From NCBI RefSeq assembly GCF_002951835.1, contig NZ_CP019448.1, positions 2,401,382 through 2,465,381 on the forward strand: DNA of 64,000 nucleotides, read 5' to 3'. Each line of letters begins with the position of its first letter. The stretch's first letter is position 1. This document shows, piece after piece, positions 35,468 through 49,472 of this stretch. The translations under genes and the position numbers were made by a program. The DNA is from Simonsiella muelleri ATCC 29453. GTDB lineage: Bacteria > Pseudomonadota > Gammaproteobacteria > Burkholderiales > Neisseriaceae. A model generated the notes under the pieces. The model was not told where the DNA came from and searched no databases. It worked only from the letters and a program-made list of their open reading frames with translations.

Positions 35468-35740
35468 TTTTAGGCAGCCTGAAAAATGGCGTGTTTATTA
35501 ATGCTTAATTAATTTTACTTTCAGGCTGCCTTAATTTTTCAGGCAGCCTGAAATTTTTTAATTTAATTAATTGAATTAAAATGATTTATCAAATTAATAA
35601 TTCACATCTACATCATTTTTCGTTTGCGCAATCTAATAAATACATAGGTTTCAGCCGATTTCACGGGTAAATTCATTGACACAAAATAGCGTAAATGCTA
35701 GAATTTGCGGTTTCTATTATTAATTTTTTTTGGACTAACT

Positions 35741-36580: not shown

Positions 36581-36792
36581 TTCGTTTTTTATACAAGAAA
36601 AACACCTCAAGAATTTTGGGGTGTTTTTCTATTTTATGGATTGGAGATAAAAAAATTGTGATTTCAATTCATCCTATTTGAATGAATTTCAATTGTAAAA
36701 TGATAAATAAAAAATAGGGGGCGGATATAAAATCCACCGCCCAATTTAGATAGGTTTGGCAAAGGTTTCAGCCTAAAAATCACTTTATTGAT

Positions 36793-39700
36793 TTAGAAGA
36801 AAATGCCATTATTGTAACGTTTAGGATTTATGCTGTAATTGGAAATTTCAGGCACAGGCAAACCTTCGTCTGTTGCTGCATCAGCGTGAGTCGGTGGCGA
36901 AGATAATGTAGCAGAACTATTAACAACAATTTGTTCTGGTTCATCTTTTTCAGCTGGCTCAATTCTGTCGTTGATGGCATCAATATTTTCAGCTTGTTCC
37001 GTTTGTAATGTATGTTTACGGAACACGGACGCAAATGAATTTTCACCAATTGTTTTGGGCGCAAATGGTGATTTTTTGGGTGTAGGCGTTTCAACAGGTT
37101 TTACCACTTCGCTGCTAACCGATGATACGGTATTCGTTTTTTCAATTGTTTGAGTTGGTGGAGTGTTTTCCGCTACTTGAGTTGTCTGAATTTTCGGTTT
37201 AACTGGAGAGGACTCAATTTCCACTCTAGGCGTAATTTCCCCTGTTGGTACGTTCGTGCTGCCTGAATTTTGTCCTGATTGAGCATTTACATTTGGTGTG
37301 TTTTTGGGTGCTACGACCACTTCAATAGTGGCTTTTTGTGGCACGGCTTGTACCGTAATTGTAGGTTTTTTGGGTTCTATCGTGTGAACCACTGGTACTA
37401 CAGAAATTTGTGGTTTTGTTTCTGCAACAGGTTGGTTGGCAATCTGAACGGATTCTACAGAAATTTCTGGTTTTGTTTCTGCAACAGGTTGGTTGGCAAT
37501 CTGAACGGATTCTATAGAAATTTGTGGTTTTGTTTCTGCAATAGGTTGGTTGGTAATCTGAACAGATTCTACTTCTATAGAGATTTCTGGCTTTGTTTCT
37601 ACAATAGGCTGGTTGGTAATCTGAACCGATTCTATTTCTACAGAGATTTCTGGTTTTGTTTCTACAATAGGCTGGTTGGTAATCTGAACCGATTCTATTT
37701 CTACAGAGATTTCTGGTTTTGTTTCTGCAACAGGTTGGTTAGCAATCTGAACAGACTCTATTTCTACAGAAATTTCTGGTTTTGTTTCTGCAACAGGTTG
37801 TGCAGGTTTGGTCAATTTGTCGGCTGGCAAACCTGCCATGCTTGCCTGTGTTAGATATTTTGCCAATGAACTGGTTTGTGGTGCAGAAGGTGCTTTGGGT
37901 GGCTCGGGCGCAATCGCTGGTGCAACAGGTCTTTTGTTTATGCTTACTGAAATATTTTTATTTTCAGTGGATTGGATTGTGGGCGTAGTCTTTTCCACAA
38001 CGGGTGTTGCGGCTGCCGATTGGGTCTCATCGGGTATGTATTTGGCGAAAATATTTGGTTTTTGGTTATTCGTTAAAATGGTGGATTTGGGTAATACCAT
38101 TTGCACGGGCGCGACGTGTAATTCTTCCTCTTCAATGACATGGCACACAGCTGCATTTGCAGGCTGCGTATTTTCAGATGATGTGGTGGGGGCTGCGGTT
38201 TGGGTAGGTTGTTGGGGTTCTGCATCATCTGGAGCTTCGGCGCGTGATACGGCAACGATTGTGCTGTCAGACGCATTGGCTAGTGCATCATTTTGCATTG
38301 CTTCAAATTCAGGTCGCTGCTTTTTGCCAAACAGCGAACAAAGCCAGCCAAAAAGTCCACCTTTAGACTTTCGTGGTGCAGATGAATTGGGTGCATTTGT
38401 ATTCATGTTATCAGACTCATTTGGCAAAGGTTGATTGGTTTCAATAATTTGTTCAGCATTTTTTTCAGGCTGCCTGAAAGATTCGGTGCTGGATTCGGTT
38501 ATGGTTTGTGGTGGTGTTGGTTCGGAGGCAATGGGTTTGCTTTCGGGCGACACAAGCGAAACAGGGGTATCGGTTGATTTAACCAATTTCGCATCTGTTT
38601 TCATGCCAACCAATGCGCTTGGTGGTGCGATAATTGGATTATTTGTCAAATTTTCGGGTGTGGCAACCGATTCATTGGTTTGGGTTGTGTCGGTTTGTGG
38701 TGTTTGTTCGCTGGATTTGGGTAACTCGGATTCAGTGATACTGGGTTGCGATGCAACATCATCAAATTCTTCGCCGATTACTTCGGGTTTGGGTAAATGC
38801 AAACCTGCTTCGGTCAGCACGGCATAAGCGGCTAATTCGTCTGTGTTTCGGCGTAGGTATTGGTGTAATTGCAAAAAATGCATTTCCAATTCTGCTGCAC
38901 GCGCAGGATGGTAATACCAATCCAGTACGGCATTTGCCAATTTTTCTGGTGTGGCATCTTTTTGCAGCAATTCAGGTACAACTTCTCTACCCAATAAAAT
39001 ATTGGGTAAACCCACATATTGAATTTTAATTTTGCGCTTGACTAATGCATAAGTCAAAGACGAAATACGGTAACTAATCACCATCGGACGTTTGCACAAA
39101 GCCACTTCCAATGAAGCAGTCCCACTGGTTACCAATACAACATCAGCTGCTATACACGCCAATTCGGTTTTGGCAGCCTGAAGACGAATGGGTAAATAAC
39201 GAAATTCTTCTTGTTGTAAATATTCTTGCAAACACTCGCGTACACCAGCTGAAGGGTAGGGCATCAAGAAGACAGCTTCAGGTAAGGCTTTGACAATTAA
39301 AGCGGCAGCACGTAAGAAAACCGGTGCCATATATTCCACTTCACTCACACGGCTACCGGGGAGCAATGTGAACACGGGTGCAGTCAAATTTAATTTCAAA
39401 CGTTCGCGCACGGCTTCGCGACTATTTTCCAGTGGCAGCATTTGTGCCAAAGGGTGTCCAACGTATTCTGCTTTGCCACCAGCATCACGATACAATTTGG
39501 GTTCCATTGGGAACAAACACAAAACCTGATTTACTTGACGCACGATTTTATGTACTCGCTCGGGTTTCCATGCCCACACCGAAGGGCTAACATAATGTAA
39601 AGTAGGAATGCCTGCGGCTTTTAATTTGGCAGCGACTGTTAAATTAAAATCGGGCGAGTCAATGCCAACAAAAACATGTGGGCTGATTTTGCGTAAATCT

Positions 39701-39945
39701 TCCACTAAACCACGGCGAATACGCAAAATTTCAAATAGGTTACCCAAAATTTCAGTATAACCGCGTACTGCTAGGGCATCTTGTTCATATAAGCTAATTA
39801 AACCAGCCGCTTTCATGCGAGGACCACCAATTCCGACAAAACGTGTATTGGGATACTGTTGTTTAAGTGCATCAATTAAATGTGCGCCGAGTAAATCGCC
39901 AGAGGCTTCGCCAGCGCAGAGTGCGATAATAATTTCTTTATTCAT
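36793..39945 (-). CDS. lpxB: Lipid-A-disaccharide synthase fused in frame to a roughly 660 aa low-complexity tail rich in Pro, Thr, Gln and Glu
   Basis: aa 1-385 are a full-length LpxB (GEASGDLLGAHLI ... GT-B fold). No stop follows. The tail includes seven copies of the 21-aa repeat KPEISVEIESVQI(T/A)NQP(I/V)(V/A)ET, which correspond to roughly 57-63 bp tandem repeats at 37395-37800. Confidence 0.8.
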   Translation of the reverse strand: MNKEIIIALCAGEASGDLLGAHLIDALKQQYPNTRFVGIGGPRMKAAGLISLYEQDALAVRGYTEILGNLFEILRIRRGLVEDLRKISPHVFVGIDSPDFNLTVAAKLKAAGIPTLHYVSPSVWAWKPERVHKIVRQVNQVLCLFPMEPKLYRDAGGKAEYVGHPLAQMLPLENSREAVRERLKLNLTAPVFTLLPGSRVSEVEYMAPVFLRAAALIVKALPEAVFLMPYPSAGVRECLQEYLQQEEFRYLPIRLQAAKTELACIAADVVLVTSGTASLEVALCKRPMVISYRISSLTYALVKRKIKIQYVGLPNILLGREVVPELLQKDATPEKLANAVLDWYYHPARAAELEMHFLQLHQYLRRNTDELAAYAVLTEAGLHLPKPEVIGEEFDDVASQPSITESELPKSSEQTPQTDTTQTNESVATPENLTNNPIIAPPSALVGMKTDAKLVKSTDTPVSLVSPESKPIASEPTPPQTITESSTESFRQPEKNAEQIIETNQPLPNESDNMNTNAPNSSAPRKSKGGLFGWLCSLFGKKQRPEFEAMQNDALANASDSTIVAVSRAEAPDDAEPQQPTQTAAPTTSSENTQPANAAVCHVIEEEELHVAPVQMVLPKSTILTNNQKPNIFAKYIPDETQSAAATPVVEKTTPTIQSTENKNISVSINKRPVAPAIAPEPPKAPSAPQTSSLAKYLTQASMAGLPADKLTKPAQPVAETKPEISVEIESVQIANQPVAETKPEISVEIESVQITNQPIVETKPEISVEIESVQITNQPIVETKPEISIEVESVQITNQPIAETKPQISIESVQIANQPVAETKPEISVESVQIANQPVAETKPQISVVPVVHTIEPKKPTITVQAVPQKATIEVVVAPKNTPNVNAQSGQNSGSTNVPTGEITPRVEIESSPVKPKIQTTQVAENTPPTQTIEKTNTVSSVSSEVVKPVETPTPKKSPFAPKTIGENSFASVFRKHTLQTEQAENIDAINDRIEPAEKDEPEQIVVNSSATLSSPPTHADAATDEGLPVPEISNYSINPKRYNNGIFF

Positions 39946-40274: not shown

Positions 40275-40478
40275 TTATTCTTTTTCATTAGCTGAATTTT
40301 GTTGTTCTTGCCATTTAGCGATGCGGTTACGTCGCCGTACCATCGCCACCCATACTGCAAATACTGTTGGCAAAATTGTCCAAAATACTAAGTAAATTAA
40401 CGCTCGCGCCACACTCGGTTGCGCTAATGAAAACATCATTGTGGTAAATACATATCCAATTAATACGATATGCCACAT
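40275..40478 (-). CDS. Small inner-membrane protein (hypothetical)
   Basis: 67 aa with two transmembrane helices. Confidence 0.4.
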   Translation of the reverse strand: MWHIVLIGYVFTTMMFSLAQPSVARALIYLVFWTILPTVFAVWVAMVRRRNRIAKWQEQQNSANEKE

Positions 40479-40551: not shown

Positions 40552-41823
40552 TTATTTAGATTTTTTCAATGTATCAATCATACCGTCTTTTTGGAAGTTT
40601 GCATCGTCAAATGTTTCCAAATCTTGACCAGGTTCACGCAACACATCTTCAGTACTCACATTGGATTTGCTCTCTAACACAATTGCAGATGATGCGTGTT
40701 CACTGGTACGATACACCATCACTAAGCCAACTTCTTCAGTTGGTAAACTCAAAATTTTAGTGGCTTTTTTGTCTGGGTTGTTCCATTCGGTTTGTACTAA
40801 GCGATTGCCTTTATAGACAGACAACACCGTACCTTCGTCCACGCCATCGGCCAAGCCTTTATTCAGAATCACGCTTTGACCCACACCAGTTTCCGATACG
40901 CCGTCCATCACGGAAACAATACGCGCTTCCACAGGAGAATCTGGTGTGTGTGGCATCGCATTAAATTGTGTTATCACGTCTGGTTTGCGAATAATGTAAT
41001 CGCCACGCATGATTTCAGATGCGGCGGTTTTTACTTGCAATGGCACTGCTGTGCGAACGGCAGTTGGTTTTTTCTCGCTGTCTAATTTCACATAATATTC
41101 ATCGCCAGCCAATTTAGCTTCCATTTTGGCACGTTGTTTGGCACTGTATCCATTTAATGCGGTGCTATTGTTGCGTTCTGCTAACGCGGTGTTATCGTTG
41201 CTCAATGTGGTTAATTCGCCACTAAATTCAACCAATTTACCCAATGATTTGCCTGTAATTGGATCTTTCAAATCTTGTACTACGCGGAAACTCAAATATT
41301 CGCCTGGTTCAATGATGCCGTCAGCATAAATGCGATCGCCATTGGTGTAAATATTGCGTCCATCTGCGCCAGCAACCACGCGTGGAGCGTGTGTCAATTC
41401 ATTTGCGCTAACAAATTGCGGGTGTTTCATAAATAAGCGGTAAAAATCCACGTCTAAAGTTTGGATACCGTAGCCAGAACCTAAATCACGCACTTGTGGA
41501 TGCAATTTGATGAAACCACTTTTACGACCCGATGCGCCTTTGCCAACACGCAACACAGGACGACCATTCACATAAGTCAAATACAACACTTGACCAGGAT
41601 AAATCCAATGTGGGTTGCGAATTTTTGCACGGTTTACATTCCACAAGCTGGGCCATTGGTATGGGCGATACAAATATTTGCCTGAAATGCCCCATAAGGT
41701 GTCACCTTGCTTCACAACATAGCGTTTAGGTGCATTGGGTTTGACTTGCAAACCTTTGGCAAAAACAGGTGCAGAAATGGCTATTCCAGCCACGCACAAC
41801 ATTGTCATAATGGATTTATTCAT
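40552..41823 (-). CDS. LysM domain-containing periplasmic protein
   Basis: Signal peptide, then a LysM motif (YVVKQGDTLWGISGKY). 423 aa. Confidence 0.7.
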   Translation of the reverse strand: MNKSIMTMLCVAGIAISAPVFAKGLQVKPNAPKRYVVKQGDTLWGISGKYLYRPYQWPSLWNVNRAKIRNPHWIYPGQVLYLTYVNGRPVLRVGKGASGRKSGFIKLHPQVRDLGSGYGIQTLDVDFYRLFMKHPQFVSANELTHAPRVVAGADGRNIYTNGDRIYADGIIEPGEYLSFRVVQDLKDPITGKSLGKLVEFSGELTTLSNDNTALAERNNSTALNGYSAKQRAKMEAKLAGDEYYVKLDSEKKPTAVRTAVPLQVKTAASEIMRGDYIIRKPDVITQFNAMPHTPDSPVEARIVSVMDGVSETGVGQSVILNKGLADGVDEGTVLSVYKGNRLVQTEWNNPDKKATKILSLPTEEVGLVMVYRTSEHASSAIVLESKSNVSTEDVLREPGQDLETFDDANFQKDGMIDTLKKSK

Positions 41824-48863: not shown

Positions 48864-49472
48864 ATGTTTAAGACACATTTTCGCCAAATGGTAATAGCAA
48901 CAGTATTAATGGGTAGTTTGGGCGGTTGTGCCGTGGGTGTGATAGGTGGTGCAACCGCCCTAGCGTCGGTAGCCGACCGTCGAAGCGCAGGTTCACAAGC
49001 CGATGACCAAATTATGGAATTACAAATCAAAGCCAAAGCTAGCTCCACGTTGCGCAAAAATAATACCTCTAATTTCAAACCTTCATTGTCAGTGGTTAGC
49101 TACAACCGTCATGTGTTACTCTTAGGTGTGGTAGCAAGCGAAGCCGACCGCCAAATGGCAGAGCAAATTGCACGCGCCGAACGCAGCGCACAAGCTGTTT
49201 ATAATCACATCACAGTGGTGGATTCAGGACGCACTTTAACCAATATCAGCAATGACACACTGATTACCTCGCGTGTCCGCACCAGTTTGTTGAATTTGGA
49301 CGGCGTGTACCCTGGTCATGTGAAAGTGGTTACGTTCAACGGCATCACTTATGTGATGGGTTTACTCACTCCCACACAACAAGAATTGGTTAATCAACGT
49401 ATTAGCACCACATCAGGCGTACAACGTGTGGTTACTTTATACGAAAATTATGTTGAACCTGTTACCAACTAA
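48864..49472 (+). CDS. Lipoprotein with two BON domains (DolP/YraP-like)
   Basis: Start moved to MFKTHF at 48864, which has an AAGGA ribosome-binding site. Lipobox LGGC. Two BON repeats. Confidence 0.7.
   Translation: MFKTHFRQMVIATVLMGSLGGCAVGVIGGATALASVADRRSAGSQADDQIMELQIKAKASSTLRKNNTSNFKPSLSVVSYNRHVLLLGVVASEADRQMAEQIARAERSAQAVYNHITVVDSGRTLTNISNDTLITSRVRTSLLNLDGVYPGHVKVVTFNGITYVMGLLTPTQQELVNQRISTTSGVQRVVTLYENYVEPVTN

What the first reader, a model, noticed from the sequence alone, without database searches (positions are those of the whole stretch)
36793..38790. LpxB fused in frame to a roughly 660 aa disordered tail with 63 bp tandem repeats
The ORF encodes a complete lipid-A-disaccharide synthase (about 385 aa). 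It then continues without a stop for about 2 kb of low-complexity sequence rich in Pro, Thr, Gln and Glu. Seven tandem repeats of KPEISVEIESVQITNQPIVET (nucleotides about 37395-37800) lie in the tail, and the sequence ends ...NPKRYNNGIFF. I know of no LpxB with such an extension. It could be a genuine fusion, for example an envelope-spanning or peptidoglycan-interacting tether. It could be a lost stop codon fusing lpxB to a downstream repetitive gene. It could be an assembly artefact. The repeat block is a plausible site of repeat-number variation. DUS copies lie inside the tail, at 37258 and 38465.
Basis: seen in the sequence. Interest (0 to 1): 0.7.

Follow-up and report, generated by a model that had tools for sequence, protein, structure and literature searches.

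The report
LpxB enzyme with long disordered tail
In Simonsiella muelleri the lipid A enzyme LpxB really does carry a 670-residue unstructured tail, and the same tail, with seven conserved short motifs, turned up only in the multicellular, lengthwise-dividing Neisseriaceae, making it an unreported candidate player in their unusual cell envelope.

Summary
Window 36793-39945 (-) is one uninterrupted 1050-aa ORF: a complete LpxB (aa 1-380) followed by a 670-aa low-complexity tail with a 63-bp tandem array.

It is not an assembly artefact or a strain-specific lost stop. Two assemblies of S. muelleri ATCC 29453 give the identical protein. Dozens of metagenome variants keep the frame with 2-8 repeat units. 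Uninterrupted orthologues exist in a Simonsiella MAG, Alysiella crassa, Conchiformibius kuhniae and a C. steedae-like contig.

The tails share seven conserved islands: an amphipathic GLFGWLxSLFG helix, RRVxEEEEL..LPKSxVL..KPNIFTKY, LAxYINQASMAWLPDS, SFASVFRRHTL, PAQIVLNRSE, IVAVSRAE and a C-terminal YSSNPKRYxxGIFF. Hypervariable spacers separate them.

AlphaFold gives a confident LpxB fold and no fold for the tail. Tail dN/dS is about 0.3, against 0.06 for the enzyme. A profile search of 1.84 billion proteins finds the tail nowhere else.

Kingella, Wielerella, Neisseria and Eikenella have ordinary 380-401-aa LpxB. Tail-bearing catalytic domains form a 200/200 clade that joins the two multicellular lineages, contrary to published species trees.

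My best reading is a cytoplasmic, membrane-touching tether or scaffold. That function is inferred, not shown. No paper found mentions the tail.

The parts
36793..39945 (-). Whole lpxB-tail ORF, 1050 aa plus stop
   Evidence: The exact protein is AUX62464.1 / EFG30304.1 of Simonsiella muelleri ATCC 29453.
38806..39945 (-). LpxB catalytic domain (aa 1-380), GT-B fold
   Evidence: Pfam PF02684 and TIGR00215 are above their cutoffs. It aligns to E. coli LpxB 5W8N residues 6-379, with R201->R199 and N316->N315 kept. AlphaFold pLDDT is about 90. The best Foldseek hit is 5W8S with TM 0.72.
36796..38805 (-). C-terminal tail (aa 381-1050): acidic (net -35), P/E/T/S/A/V/I-rich, predicted unstructured
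   Evidence: Composition. Charge and absence of a TM segment. pLDDT is below 50 from residue 395 to 1050 in both models, apart from isolated residues. No family or PDB match.
38314..38373 (-). Motif M1 (aa 525-544), RKSKGGLFGWLCSLFGKKQR: short amphipathic helix flanked by basic residues; putative in-plane membrane anchor
   Evidence: L and F are invariant in all 10 lineage tails. A helix is predicted at 531-539 / 532-537. The hydrophobic moment is 0.33-0.58, in the range computed for MinD anchors typed in from memory.
38236..38259 (-). Motif M2 (aa 563-570), IVAVSRAE
   Evidence: Conserved in the long-tail lineages and recognisable as AAVRLAED in two short-tail lineages.
38038..38145 (-). Motif M3 (aa 601-636), xHVIEEEEL..APxxxxLPKSTIL....KPNIFAKY
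   Evidence: Seven invariant columns (P, S, L, I, F, K, Y) across all 10 tails.
37819..37866 (-). Motif M4 (aa 694-709), LAKYLTQASMAGLPAD
   Evidence: Invariant M, A, P and nearly invariant Y, S, L. A helix is predicted at 693-702. The motif is duplicated in C. kuhniae by a 216-bp repeat.
37384..37800 (-). Polymorphic tandem array: 63-bp (21-aa) units ETKPEISVEIESVQITNQPIV, of which 4 are full, 2 are 57-bp units and 1 is partial
   Evidence: TRF result. Unit list. Copy number is 2-8 in S. muelleri-like proteins, with lengths stepping by about 21 aa.
36991..37038 (-). Motif M5 (aa 970-985), SFASVFRKHTLQTEQA
   Evidence: Conserved in all six long-tail lineages. A helix at 971-995 had the highest pLDDT (59-70) in model 1, but this was not reproduced in model 2.
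36913..36939 (-). Motif M6 (aa 1003-1011), PEQIVVNSS (consensus PAQIVLNRSE)
36796..36849 (-). Motif M7 (aa 1033-1050), C-terminal EISNYSINPKRYNNGIFF-COOH
   Evidence: Y, S, N, P, R, Y and G are invariant and the terminal aromatic pair is kept in all 10 tails.
38464..38475 (-). Exact DNA uptake sequence inside the tail. The DUS with its 5' TTC (38464-38478) reads in frame as FRQPE (aa 490-494)
   Evidence: The same peptide occurs in the A. crassa and P0038 tails.
36720..36738 (-). Terminator-like hairpin plus T-run, 55 nt after the stop codon
   Evidence: No minus-strand terminator-like site was found inside the ORF.

Best explanation
This is a genuine, translated, lineage-specific form of lipid-A-disaccharide synthase.

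Shown. A complete, catalytically intact LpxB is followed in one frame by a 330-730-aa tail in Simonsiella, Alysiella and Conchiformibius. The tail has no predicted fold. It evolves under weaker but real purifying selection. It consists of conserved short motifs separated by fast-evolving spacers of variable length. In S. muelleri one spacer is a polymorphic 63-bp array.

Inferred. The tail stays in the cytoplasm. Motif M1 lies on the inner membrane as an amphipathic helix. The other motifs, above all the invariant C-terminal YSSNPKRYxxGIFF, dock onto so far unknown partners. The spacers act as flexible or stiff linkers.

Net effect proposed. The tail tethers or positions the LpxB dimer, or recruits partners to it, so that lipid A synthesis is spatially organised in flat cells that share one outer membrane. 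In design it resembles the C-terminal scaffold half of RNase E: an unstructured region with a membrane-targeting helix and partner-binding microdomains.
For: Real and conserved:
- The 1050-aa protein is identical in the complete 2.47-Mb genome and in the 85.7-kb scaffold of the same strain.
- 36 cluster representatives at 84-97 % identity are full length.
- Uninterrupted ORFs occur in a Simonsiella MAG (997 aa), A. crassa (1096 aa), C. kuhniae (772 aa), a C. steedae-like contig (716 aa) and four unidentified lineages.

Enzyme intact:
- Family models are above their cutoffs and R201/N316 equivalents are kept.
- The fold matches 5W8S.

Tail is a motif-and-spacer region:
- There are 19 invariant columns, clustered in islands M1, M3, M4 and M7, although tail identity is only 23-37 %.
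- pLDDT is below 50 from residue 395 to 1050 apart from isolated residues, even when the domain reaches about 90.

Selection: dN/dS is 0.30-0.37 in the tail against 0.05-0.07 in the domain.

Cytoplasmic: no TM-like segment, and net charge -35.

Spacer length matters more than sequence:
- The spacer after M4 is V/E/I/P/T repeats in Simonsiella and Alysiella.
- It is E/A/R/Q helix-like repeats in Conchiformibius.
- It varies from 2 to 8 units within S. muelleri.

Orphan: a profile search of 1.84e9 proteins returns only these LpxBs and fragments of them.

Distribution:
- LpxB is of normal length in K. kingae, K. negevensis, K. denitrificans, Wielerella bovis, Neisseria and Eikenella.
- The tail-bearing clade has 200/200 bootstrap support.

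Dimer context: E. coli LpxB is a C-terminally swapped dimer (PMC5785501), so two tails would leave each dimer.
Against: - No partner has been identified, and there is no experimental evidence here that the full 115-kDa protein accumulates.
- Low pLDDT is only a proxy for disorder. On a charge-hydropathy plot the tail is borderline (H 0.441 against a boundary of 0.432) because it is rich in V and I.
- In S. muelleri the M1 hydrophobic moment (0.37) is above the tail mean (0.22 +/- 0.11) but below the 99th percentile (0.55). M1 is also internal, not C-terminal as in MinD.
- Gene neighbourhoods are not conserved, so context gives no functional hint.
- Four tail-bearing lineages come from unidentified organisms, so the link to multicellularity rests on five identified ones.
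- A MAG labelled 'Alysiella sp.' has a normal 383-aa LpxB.
Confidence: 0.55

Rival explanations
1. Regulatory degron or autoinhibitor. The long floppy tail with its hydrophobic C-terminus (…GIFF) serves as an initiation site and recognition signal for an AAA+ protease such as FtsH, or folds back on the enzyme. Either way LpxB level or activity, and hence LPS synthesis, would be tuned.
For: The C-terminal motif is invariant and ends in aromatic residues. The tail is unstructured, which favours protease engagement. From general knowledge, E. coli LpxC and WaaA are controlled by FtsH through C-terminal signals.
Against: A degron needs about 20 residues, not 330-730 with seven conserved islands. 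AlphaFold gave no raised confidence that would suggest a motif docking on the domain. There is no evidence on turnover.
Confidence: 0.15
2. Tolerated junk. An ancient stop-codon loss extended lpxB into non-coding DNA, and the extension persists because it is harmless.
For: The tail has no homologue anywhere. It is low-complexity and varies greatly in length. It tolerates in-frame DUS insertions.
Against: Motifs are invariant across lineages whose catalytic domains are only 74-86 % identical. dN/dS is about 0.3, not about 1. No variant among more than 50 full-length sequences carries a stop or frameshift. Repeat units are always multiples of 3.
Confidence: 0.07
3. Condensate or steric module. 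The acidic low-complexity tail drives clustering (phase separation) of LpxB, or excludes it by bulk from crowded zones such as the nucleoid or the septal membrane, without specific partners.
For: The tail is large, acidic (net -35) and repetitive. Spacer sequence is free to change while length is retained.
Against: This does not explain sharply conserved short motifs with invariant aromatic and proline residues.
Confidence: 0.13
4. Artefact or two genes. A mis-assembly, a sequencing error that removed a stop, or a separately translated downstream gene.
For: The repeat array could mislead short-read assemblers. A few metagenome proteins are truncated or frameshifted (P0181, P0301).
Against: Sequence is identical in two assemblies, one of them a complete chromosome. 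Orthologues in three genera are single ORFs. There is no in-frame start with a Shine-Dalgarno-like site at aa 360-560. There is no internal terminator-like site on the coding strand. No stand-alone tail protein exists.
Confidence: 0.02
5. Envelope-spanning or peptidoglycan-binding tether. The tail would leave the cytoplasm and reach the wall.
For: Pro/Thr/Val/Glu-rich repeats resemble wall-spanning linkers of other proteins (general knowledge).
Against: There is no signal peptide and no TM segment: the hydrophobic run of M1 is about 12 residues, and 9 in Conchiformibius. LpxB acts at the cytoplasmic face of the inner membrane (PMC5785501). No LysM, SPOR, OmpA or other wall-binding domain was detected.
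Confidence: 0.03

Closest known systems
Canonical LpxB (E. coli, PDB 5W8S/5W8N; GT19 family)
   Same: The catalytic domain aligns end to end (aa 4-378 against 6-379), is 42 % identical in the Foldseek structural alignment to 5W8S, keeps R201 and N316, and has a GT-B fold.
   Different: E. coli LpxB stops 3 residues after the alignment ends. This protein continues for about 670 residues.
Other natural LpxB fusions (RNase HII-LpxB, LpxA-LpxB, LpxI-LpxB, glycosyltransferase-LpxB, chlamydial LAB_N-LpxB)
   Same: LpxB is found fused to extra polypeptide in several lineages (Pfam columns).
   Different: Those partners are folded, recognisable domains, mostly from the same pathway. Here the addition is an orphan, unstructured region with short motifs.
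RNase E C-terminal scaffold region (general knowledge)
   Same: A long unstructured C-terminal half on an essential enzyme, with one amphipathic membrane-targeting helix and short conserved microdomains between variable spacers.
   Different: There is no sequence similarity. The partners of RNase E are known, whereas here none is. The enzyme and pathway are different.
MinD / FtsA amphipathic membrane-targeting sequences (general knowledge)
   Same: M1 (GLFGWLxSLFG, GLFGKVKKWFG, SLLARLFGS) looks like KGFLKRLFGG of E. coli MinD in length, pattern and hydrophobic moment.
   Different: M1 is internal, about 500 residues from the C-terminus. In Simonsiella and Alysiella its polar face is G/S rather than K/R. 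Membrane binding is untested.
FtsZ C-terminal linker plus C-terminal peptide (general knowledge)
   Same: A variable-length disordered linker ending in a short, highly conserved terminal peptide that would dock on partners.
   Different: Here there are several internal motifs as well, the terminal peptide is unrelated, and the protein class is different.
amiC2 and other MuLDi-associated traits (Nyongesa et al. 2022, PMC9395523)
   Same: Present in both multicellular lineages, M1 (Alysiella/Simonsiella) and M2 (Conchiformibius), and absent from Kingella. The gene tree suggests sharing between lineages.
   Different: This is not a gained gene but an extension of a core gene, so presence/absence screens miss it. 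It is not mentioned in that paper's main text. In the 74 supplement files held as text, lipid-A-disaccharide synthase appears once, as a single expression-table row for a differently starting LpxB.

Membership tests
LpxB / lipid-A-disaccharide synthase (GT19) | Sequence matches the curated family models above their thresholds | tested here: met
   PF02684 scores 341.6 bits (cutoff 22.6). TIGR00215 equivalog scores 354.1 bits (cutoff 190.25).
LpxB / lipid-A-disaccharide synthase (GT19) | Functionally important residues of E. coli LpxB (R201, N316) and the hydrophobic membrane patch around residues 66-76 | tested here: met
   The alignment to 5W8N gives R199 and N315. The segment EILGNLFEILRI at aa 65-76 is hydrophobic. 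The roles of these residues are taken from PMC5785501.
LpxB / lipid-A-disaccharide synthase (GT19) | GT-B two-Rossmann fold | tested here: met
   AlphaFold model 2 has pLDDT of about 90 for aa 1-390. The top Foldseek hits are 5W8S, 5W8N and 5W8X (E 3.5e-30, TM 0.72).
LpxB / lipid-A-disaccharide synthase (GT19) | C-terminally swapped homodimer and disaccharide synthase activity | not testable with these tools
   This needs biochemistry. It also needs knowing whether this is the only lpxB copy in the genome, and only 64 kb was seen.
C-terminal amphipathic membrane-targeting sequence (MinD/FtsA type) | Short helix with one hydrophobic face, flanked by basic residues | tested here: met
   A helix is predicted at 531-539. 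The hydrophobic moment is 0.33-0.58, against 0.40-0.45 for MinD peptides typed in from memory. The flanks are RKSK and KKQR.
C-terminal amphipathic membrane-targeting sequence (MinD/FtsA type) | Located at the extreme C-terminus | tested here: not met
   M1 is at aa 525-544 of 1050. It may work like such an anchor but is not a member of that class.
C-terminal amphipathic membrane-targeting sequence (MinD/FtsA type) | Binds membrane in vivo | not testable with these tools
   Needs a GFP-M1 fusion or a liposome assay.
Disordered scaffold with short linear motifs (RNase E-CTD type) | Long region without stable fold | tested here: inconclusive
   pLDDT is below 50 from residue 395 to 1050 apart from isolated residues, and there is no structural or family match. 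The charge-hydropathy value is borderline.
Disordered scaffold with short linear motifs (RNase E-CTD type) | Conserved short motifs between non-conserved spacers | tested here: met
   Invariant columns are confined to islands M1, M3, M4 and M7. Mean column identity is 31 %.
Disordered scaffold with short linear motifs (RNase E-CTD type) | Motifs bind defined partner proteins | not testable with these tools
   No partner is known and gene context is uninformative.
Phase-variable (contingency) repeat locus of Neisseriaceae | Repeat-number change shifts the reading frame and switches the gene on or off | tested here: not met
   Units are 63 and 57 bp. All variants with 2-8 units stay in frame. 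This is length polymorphism, not on/off switching.

The most novel reading that the evidence does not exclude
The LpxB tail is a dedicated module of the multicellular, longitudinally dividing Neisseriaceae. It was passed horizontally between the Alysiella/Simonsiella lineage and the Conchiformibius lineage, or was inherited from a multicellular ancestor. It positions lipid A synthesis relative to the cell rim, septum or host-attached pole in cells that share one outer membrane. That would make it one of the few genetic determinants of this body plan.
Probability: 0.2. Interest if true: 0.85.

Novelty: new variant of a known kind. Interest (0 to 1): 0.62.

Why it matters
LpxB is an essential, well-studied enzyme of lipid A synthesis and normally has about 380-400 residues.

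Here a whole clade carries a tail that nearly triples its size. The tail has motifs conserved across genera and no relative anywhere else in 1.84 billion proteins.

Every tail-bearing sequence whose organism could be named comes from the three genera that form multicellular filaments, divide lengthwise and share one outer membrane. Their unicellular relatives that could be named lack it.

The catalytic-domain tree joins the two multicellular lineages against the published species trees. That echoes the story proposed for amiC2. Published comparative screens looked at gene presence or absence and at point substitutions, so they would not flag an extension of a core gene.

The finding gives a concrete, testable handle on how envelope synthesis is organised in these bacteria: truncate the tail, localise LpxB, fish for partners with M3, M4 and M7. 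It also adds a case study of how a disordered scaffold is born on a bacterial enzyme.

Tried and rejected
- Tail against Pfam, NCBIfam, PHROGs and PDB sequences: nothing.
- Word-indexed search with the tail alignment: it returned only S. muelleri-like proteins and fragments, and was swamped by low-complexity words. It says nothing about stand-alone tails.
- Full HMMER search of 1.84e9 representatives: it settled that question. The two short extra hits are contig or frameshift fragments.
- First AlphaFold run with 18 sequences: too shallow, pLDDT 35.7 even for the enzyme. Repeated with 106 sequences. No tail motif gained confidence, so there is no support for a fold-back model.
- Looked for an internal start with a ribosome-binding site at the domain/tail junction: none found. 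The annotated start also lacks a clear one, so this is weak evidence.
- Looked for conserved gene neighbours: none beyond the species.
- Tried to build a control gene tree from flanking genes. The loci held no gene shared by all taxa, so the species tree is taken from PMC9395523 and PMC10715097.
- Searched for the accession GCA_000428785 in papers: no hit. The organism was identified through flanking proteins instead.
- A Biopython bootstrap timed out and was redone with a numpy distance routine.
- Phase variation was considered and rejected because the units are multiples of 3.
Full report
1. What is in the sequence.

ORF listing shows one uninterrupted ORF of 1050 aa on the minus strand, 36793..39945. 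Pfam LpxB covers aa 7-375 (E 6.5e-102). The NCBIfam equivalog TIGR00215 scores 354 bits against a cutoff of 190.

The domain aligns to E. coli LpxB (PDB 5W8N/5W8S) over residues 6-379 of 382. So the E. coli enzyme ends where this protein's tail begins. The residues shown to matter in E. coli, R201 and N316 (PMC5785501), are R199 and N315 here.

The remaining ~670 residues match no Pfam, NCBIfam, PHROG or PDB entry. They are rich in P, E, T, S, A, V, I and Q, carry a net charge of -35, and have no stretch hydrophobic enough to cross a membrane (maximum 19-residue Kyte-Doolittle mean 0.83).

TRF finds a 63-bp period with 6.6 copies at 37398-37800. At protein level this is four 21-aa units, two 19-aa units and one partial unit.

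A terminator-like hairpin follows the stop codon by 55 nt. No such site lies on the coding strand inside the ORF. No in-frame start with a ribosome-binding-like sequence sits near the junction.

Only 38464-38475 is an exact AGGCAGCCTGAA. The site at 37253-37264 has two mismatches.

2. Origin, and whether it is an artefact.

The exact protein is on record as AUX62464.1 and EFG30304.1, 'lipid-A-disaccharide synthase' of Simonsiella muelleri ATCC 29453. It appears both on a 2.47-Mb record and on an 85.7-kb scaffold. Two assemblies agree, so mis-assembly is very unlikely.

A protein search returned 36 cluster representatives at 84-97 % identity, all 946-1052 aa, from metagenome assemblies. Counting the repeat start ETKP[EQ]IS gives 2 to 8 units, with lengths stepping by about 21 aa and never out of frame. 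Short-read assemblies can collapse repeats, so the exact range needs long reads. The polymorphism itself is clear, and it is length variation, not on/off phase variation.

3. Orthologues.

Full-length, single-ORF relatives with 46-62 % overall identity occur in the following:
- a Simonsiella sp. MAG (997 aa) and Alysiella crassa DSM 2578 (1096 aa);
- three unidentified lineages of 918-1089 aa.

A second group has shorter tails of 330-390 aa. One member lies on a contig whose flanking DapD and Dtd proteins are exact Conchiformibius kuhniae entries. Another lies on a contig whose neighbours cluster at 90 % or more with C. steedae. Two further short-tail lineages are unidentified.

4. Anatomy of the tail.

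Aligning ten tails from these lineages gives only 23-37 % identity to S. muelleri. Even so there are 19 invariant columns, clustered in islands M1, M3, M4 and M7:
- M1: GLFGWLxSLFG (in Conchiformibius SLLARLFGS), flanked by basic residues
- M2: IVAVSRAE
- M3: RRVxEEEEL...LPKSxVL....KPNIFTKY
- M4: LAxYINQASMAWLPDS
- M5: SFASVFRRHTL (long tails only)
- M6: PAQIVLNRSE (long tails only)
- M7: the C-terminal VSxYSSNPKRYxxGIFF/Y

Between the islands, sequence and length are free. The spacer after M4 is V/E/I/P/T-rich repeats in Simonsiella and Alysiella. In Conchiformibius it is E/A/R/Q-rich, helix-like repeats, and C. kuhniae has a 216-bp duplication that copies M4 itself.

AlphaFold with a 106-sequence alignment gives about 90 pLDDT for aa 1-390 and below 50 from residue 395 to 1050 apart from isolated residues. 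Only short helices appear, at M1 (532-537) and M4 (694-701). The model's best structural matches are the E. coli LpxB entries, and they cover the first ~380 residues only.

The M1 hydrophobic moment (0.33-0.58) is in the range I computed for MinD membrane anchors typed in from memory. In S. muelleri it is not an outlier within the tail.

5. Selection.

Codon alignments of the window gene with two S. muelleri-like contigs give dN/dS of 0.05-0.07 for the enzyme and 0.30-0.37 for the tail. The tail is constrained as protein, though less tightly than the enzyme.

6. Is the tail found anywhere else?

A profile of the ten tails was scored against 1.84 billion representative proteins. It hit four tail-bearing LpxBs and two short pieces. 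On inspection these two are fragments of the same genes. No stand-alone gene exists that could have been fused by a lost stop codon. The tail is an orphan born on lpxB.

7. Distribution and phylogeny.

A search with the catalytic domain alone shows that the nearest ordinary LpxBs are 63-70 % identical and 380-401 aa long. They belong to Wielerella bovis, Kingella kingae, K. negevensis, K. denitrificans, an uncultured Kingella, several Neisseria and Eikenella. Tail-bearing domains are 74-86 % identical to S. muelleri.

In a neighbour-joining tree of 30 catalytic domains, all tail-bearing sequences form one clade in 200 of 200 bootstraps, and every Kingella lies outside it.

Two published phylogenomic studies give a different species picture. 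They place Kingella between, or around, the Alysiella/Simonsiella lineage and Conchiformibius. They discuss whether the multicellular, longitudinally dividing habit arose twice or once with reversal (PMC9395523; PMC10715097).

If Kingella had merely lost the tail, its lpxB should nest inside the tail clade, and it does not. The simplest readings are transfer of the lpxB-tail allele between the two multicellular lineages, or replacement of lpxB in Kingella. This rests on a distance tree and on published species trees, so I treat it as a lead.

Neither paper's main text mentions lpxB or lipid A. In the 74 supplement files of the first that are held as text, lipid-A-disaccharide synthase appears only once, as a single expression-table row for a differently starting LpxB. 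General searches for LpxB with disordered or C-terminal extensions found nothing relevant.

8. How it most likely works.

Shown: a genuine, conserved, selected extension made of short motifs and variable spacers, without predicted fold or membrane-spanning segment, on an intact enzyme.

From established knowledge: LpxB acts at the cytoplasmic face of the inner membrane as a C-terminally swapped dimer. Two tails would therefore emerge from each dimer into the cytoplasm.

Inferred: M1 lies in the membrane surface. M3, M4, M5 and M7 bind partners. The spacers set reach. The design parallels the RNase E C-terminal scaffold and the FtsZ linker-plus-terminal-peptide arrangement.

Why these bacteria would need it is speculation. 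Their cells are flat, joined by lateral wall and wrapped in one shared outer membrane. Only part of each cell's inner membrane therefore faces outer membrane, and positioning of LPS synthesis is a plausible need.

The last two are effectively excluded.

9. Verdict.

'Artefact', 'lost stop' and 'envelope-spanning' do not.

This is a new variant of a known enzyme family carrying an undescribed orphan tail family. Its apparent restriction to the multicellular Neisseriaceae, together with the gene-tree conflict, makes it worth experimental follow-up. The function remains inferred.

Noticed in passing
window 38464-38478 (-); also the tails of A. crassa (L002) and P0038: The DNA uptake sequence with its 5' TTC (TTC AGG CAG CCT GAA) is read in frame as the peptide FRQPE inside the tail. 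The same peptide occurs twice in the A. crassa tail and once in P0038. The disordered tail seems to tolerate DUS insertions.
   Followed up: partly
proteins P0050 / P0051 (657 and 702 aa, metagenome): A different, unrelated C-terminal extension of about 270-320 aa sits on an LpxB that branches outside the tail clade. It has repeated KRQPE(N/S) peptides and what looks like a foldable C-terminal part. This would be an independent second case of LpxB extension in Neisseriaceae-like bacteria.
   Followed up: partly
L004 5803-6197 (Conchiformibius kuhniae lpxB tail): A 216-bp tandem duplication (1.8 copies, 93 % matches) duplicates motif M4 together with an E/A/R/Q-rich helix-like spacer.
   Followed up: partly
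window 37279-37854, 37808-38434, 38435-38827 (+): Three long ORFs (191, 208 and 130 aa) lie on the strand opposite the tail. They look like by-products of the low-complexity, repetitive sequence and not like genes.
   Followed up: no
window 40275-40478 and 40552-41823 (-): A 423-aa LysM-domain protein and a 67-aa hydrophobic small ORF lie just upstream of lpxB on the same strand. This order is kept in the S. muelleri-like contigs L009 and L010. LysM or BON proteins also lie near lpxB in C. kuhniae and the Simonsiella MAG, possibly by chance.
   Followed up: partly
window 35472-35552: Three DUS copies in alternating orientation (35472-35483 +, 35520-35531 -, 35541-35552 +) lie between the Bax1-I-like gene and rplM. 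TRF reports them as an 18-bp repeat. They may form a DUS-based hairpin or terminator.
   Followed up: no
protein P0264 ('MAG: Alysiella sp.', 383 aa): A MAG labelled Alysiella has an ordinary-length LpxB that branches with 'Neisseriaceae bacterium B1', not with A. crassa. Either the label is loose or not every Alysiella-like organism has the tail.
   Followed up: partly
PDB chains 7tgh_T1, 8b6f_A0, 8gym_T1: An LpxB-like chain of about 500 aa, named lipid-A-disaccharide synthase, is a subunit of Tetrahymena respiratory complex I structures. It matches the model's GT-B domain (E about 1e-17).
   Followed up: no
window 48864-49457, versus L001 3780-4382, L005 1736-2338 and L008 3-530: The BON-domain protein that sits next to lpxB in the Simonsiella MAG and in the P0040 lineage has its S. 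muelleri counterpart (70 % identical) about 9 kb away from lpxB. The neighbourhood has been rearranged.
   Followed up: no
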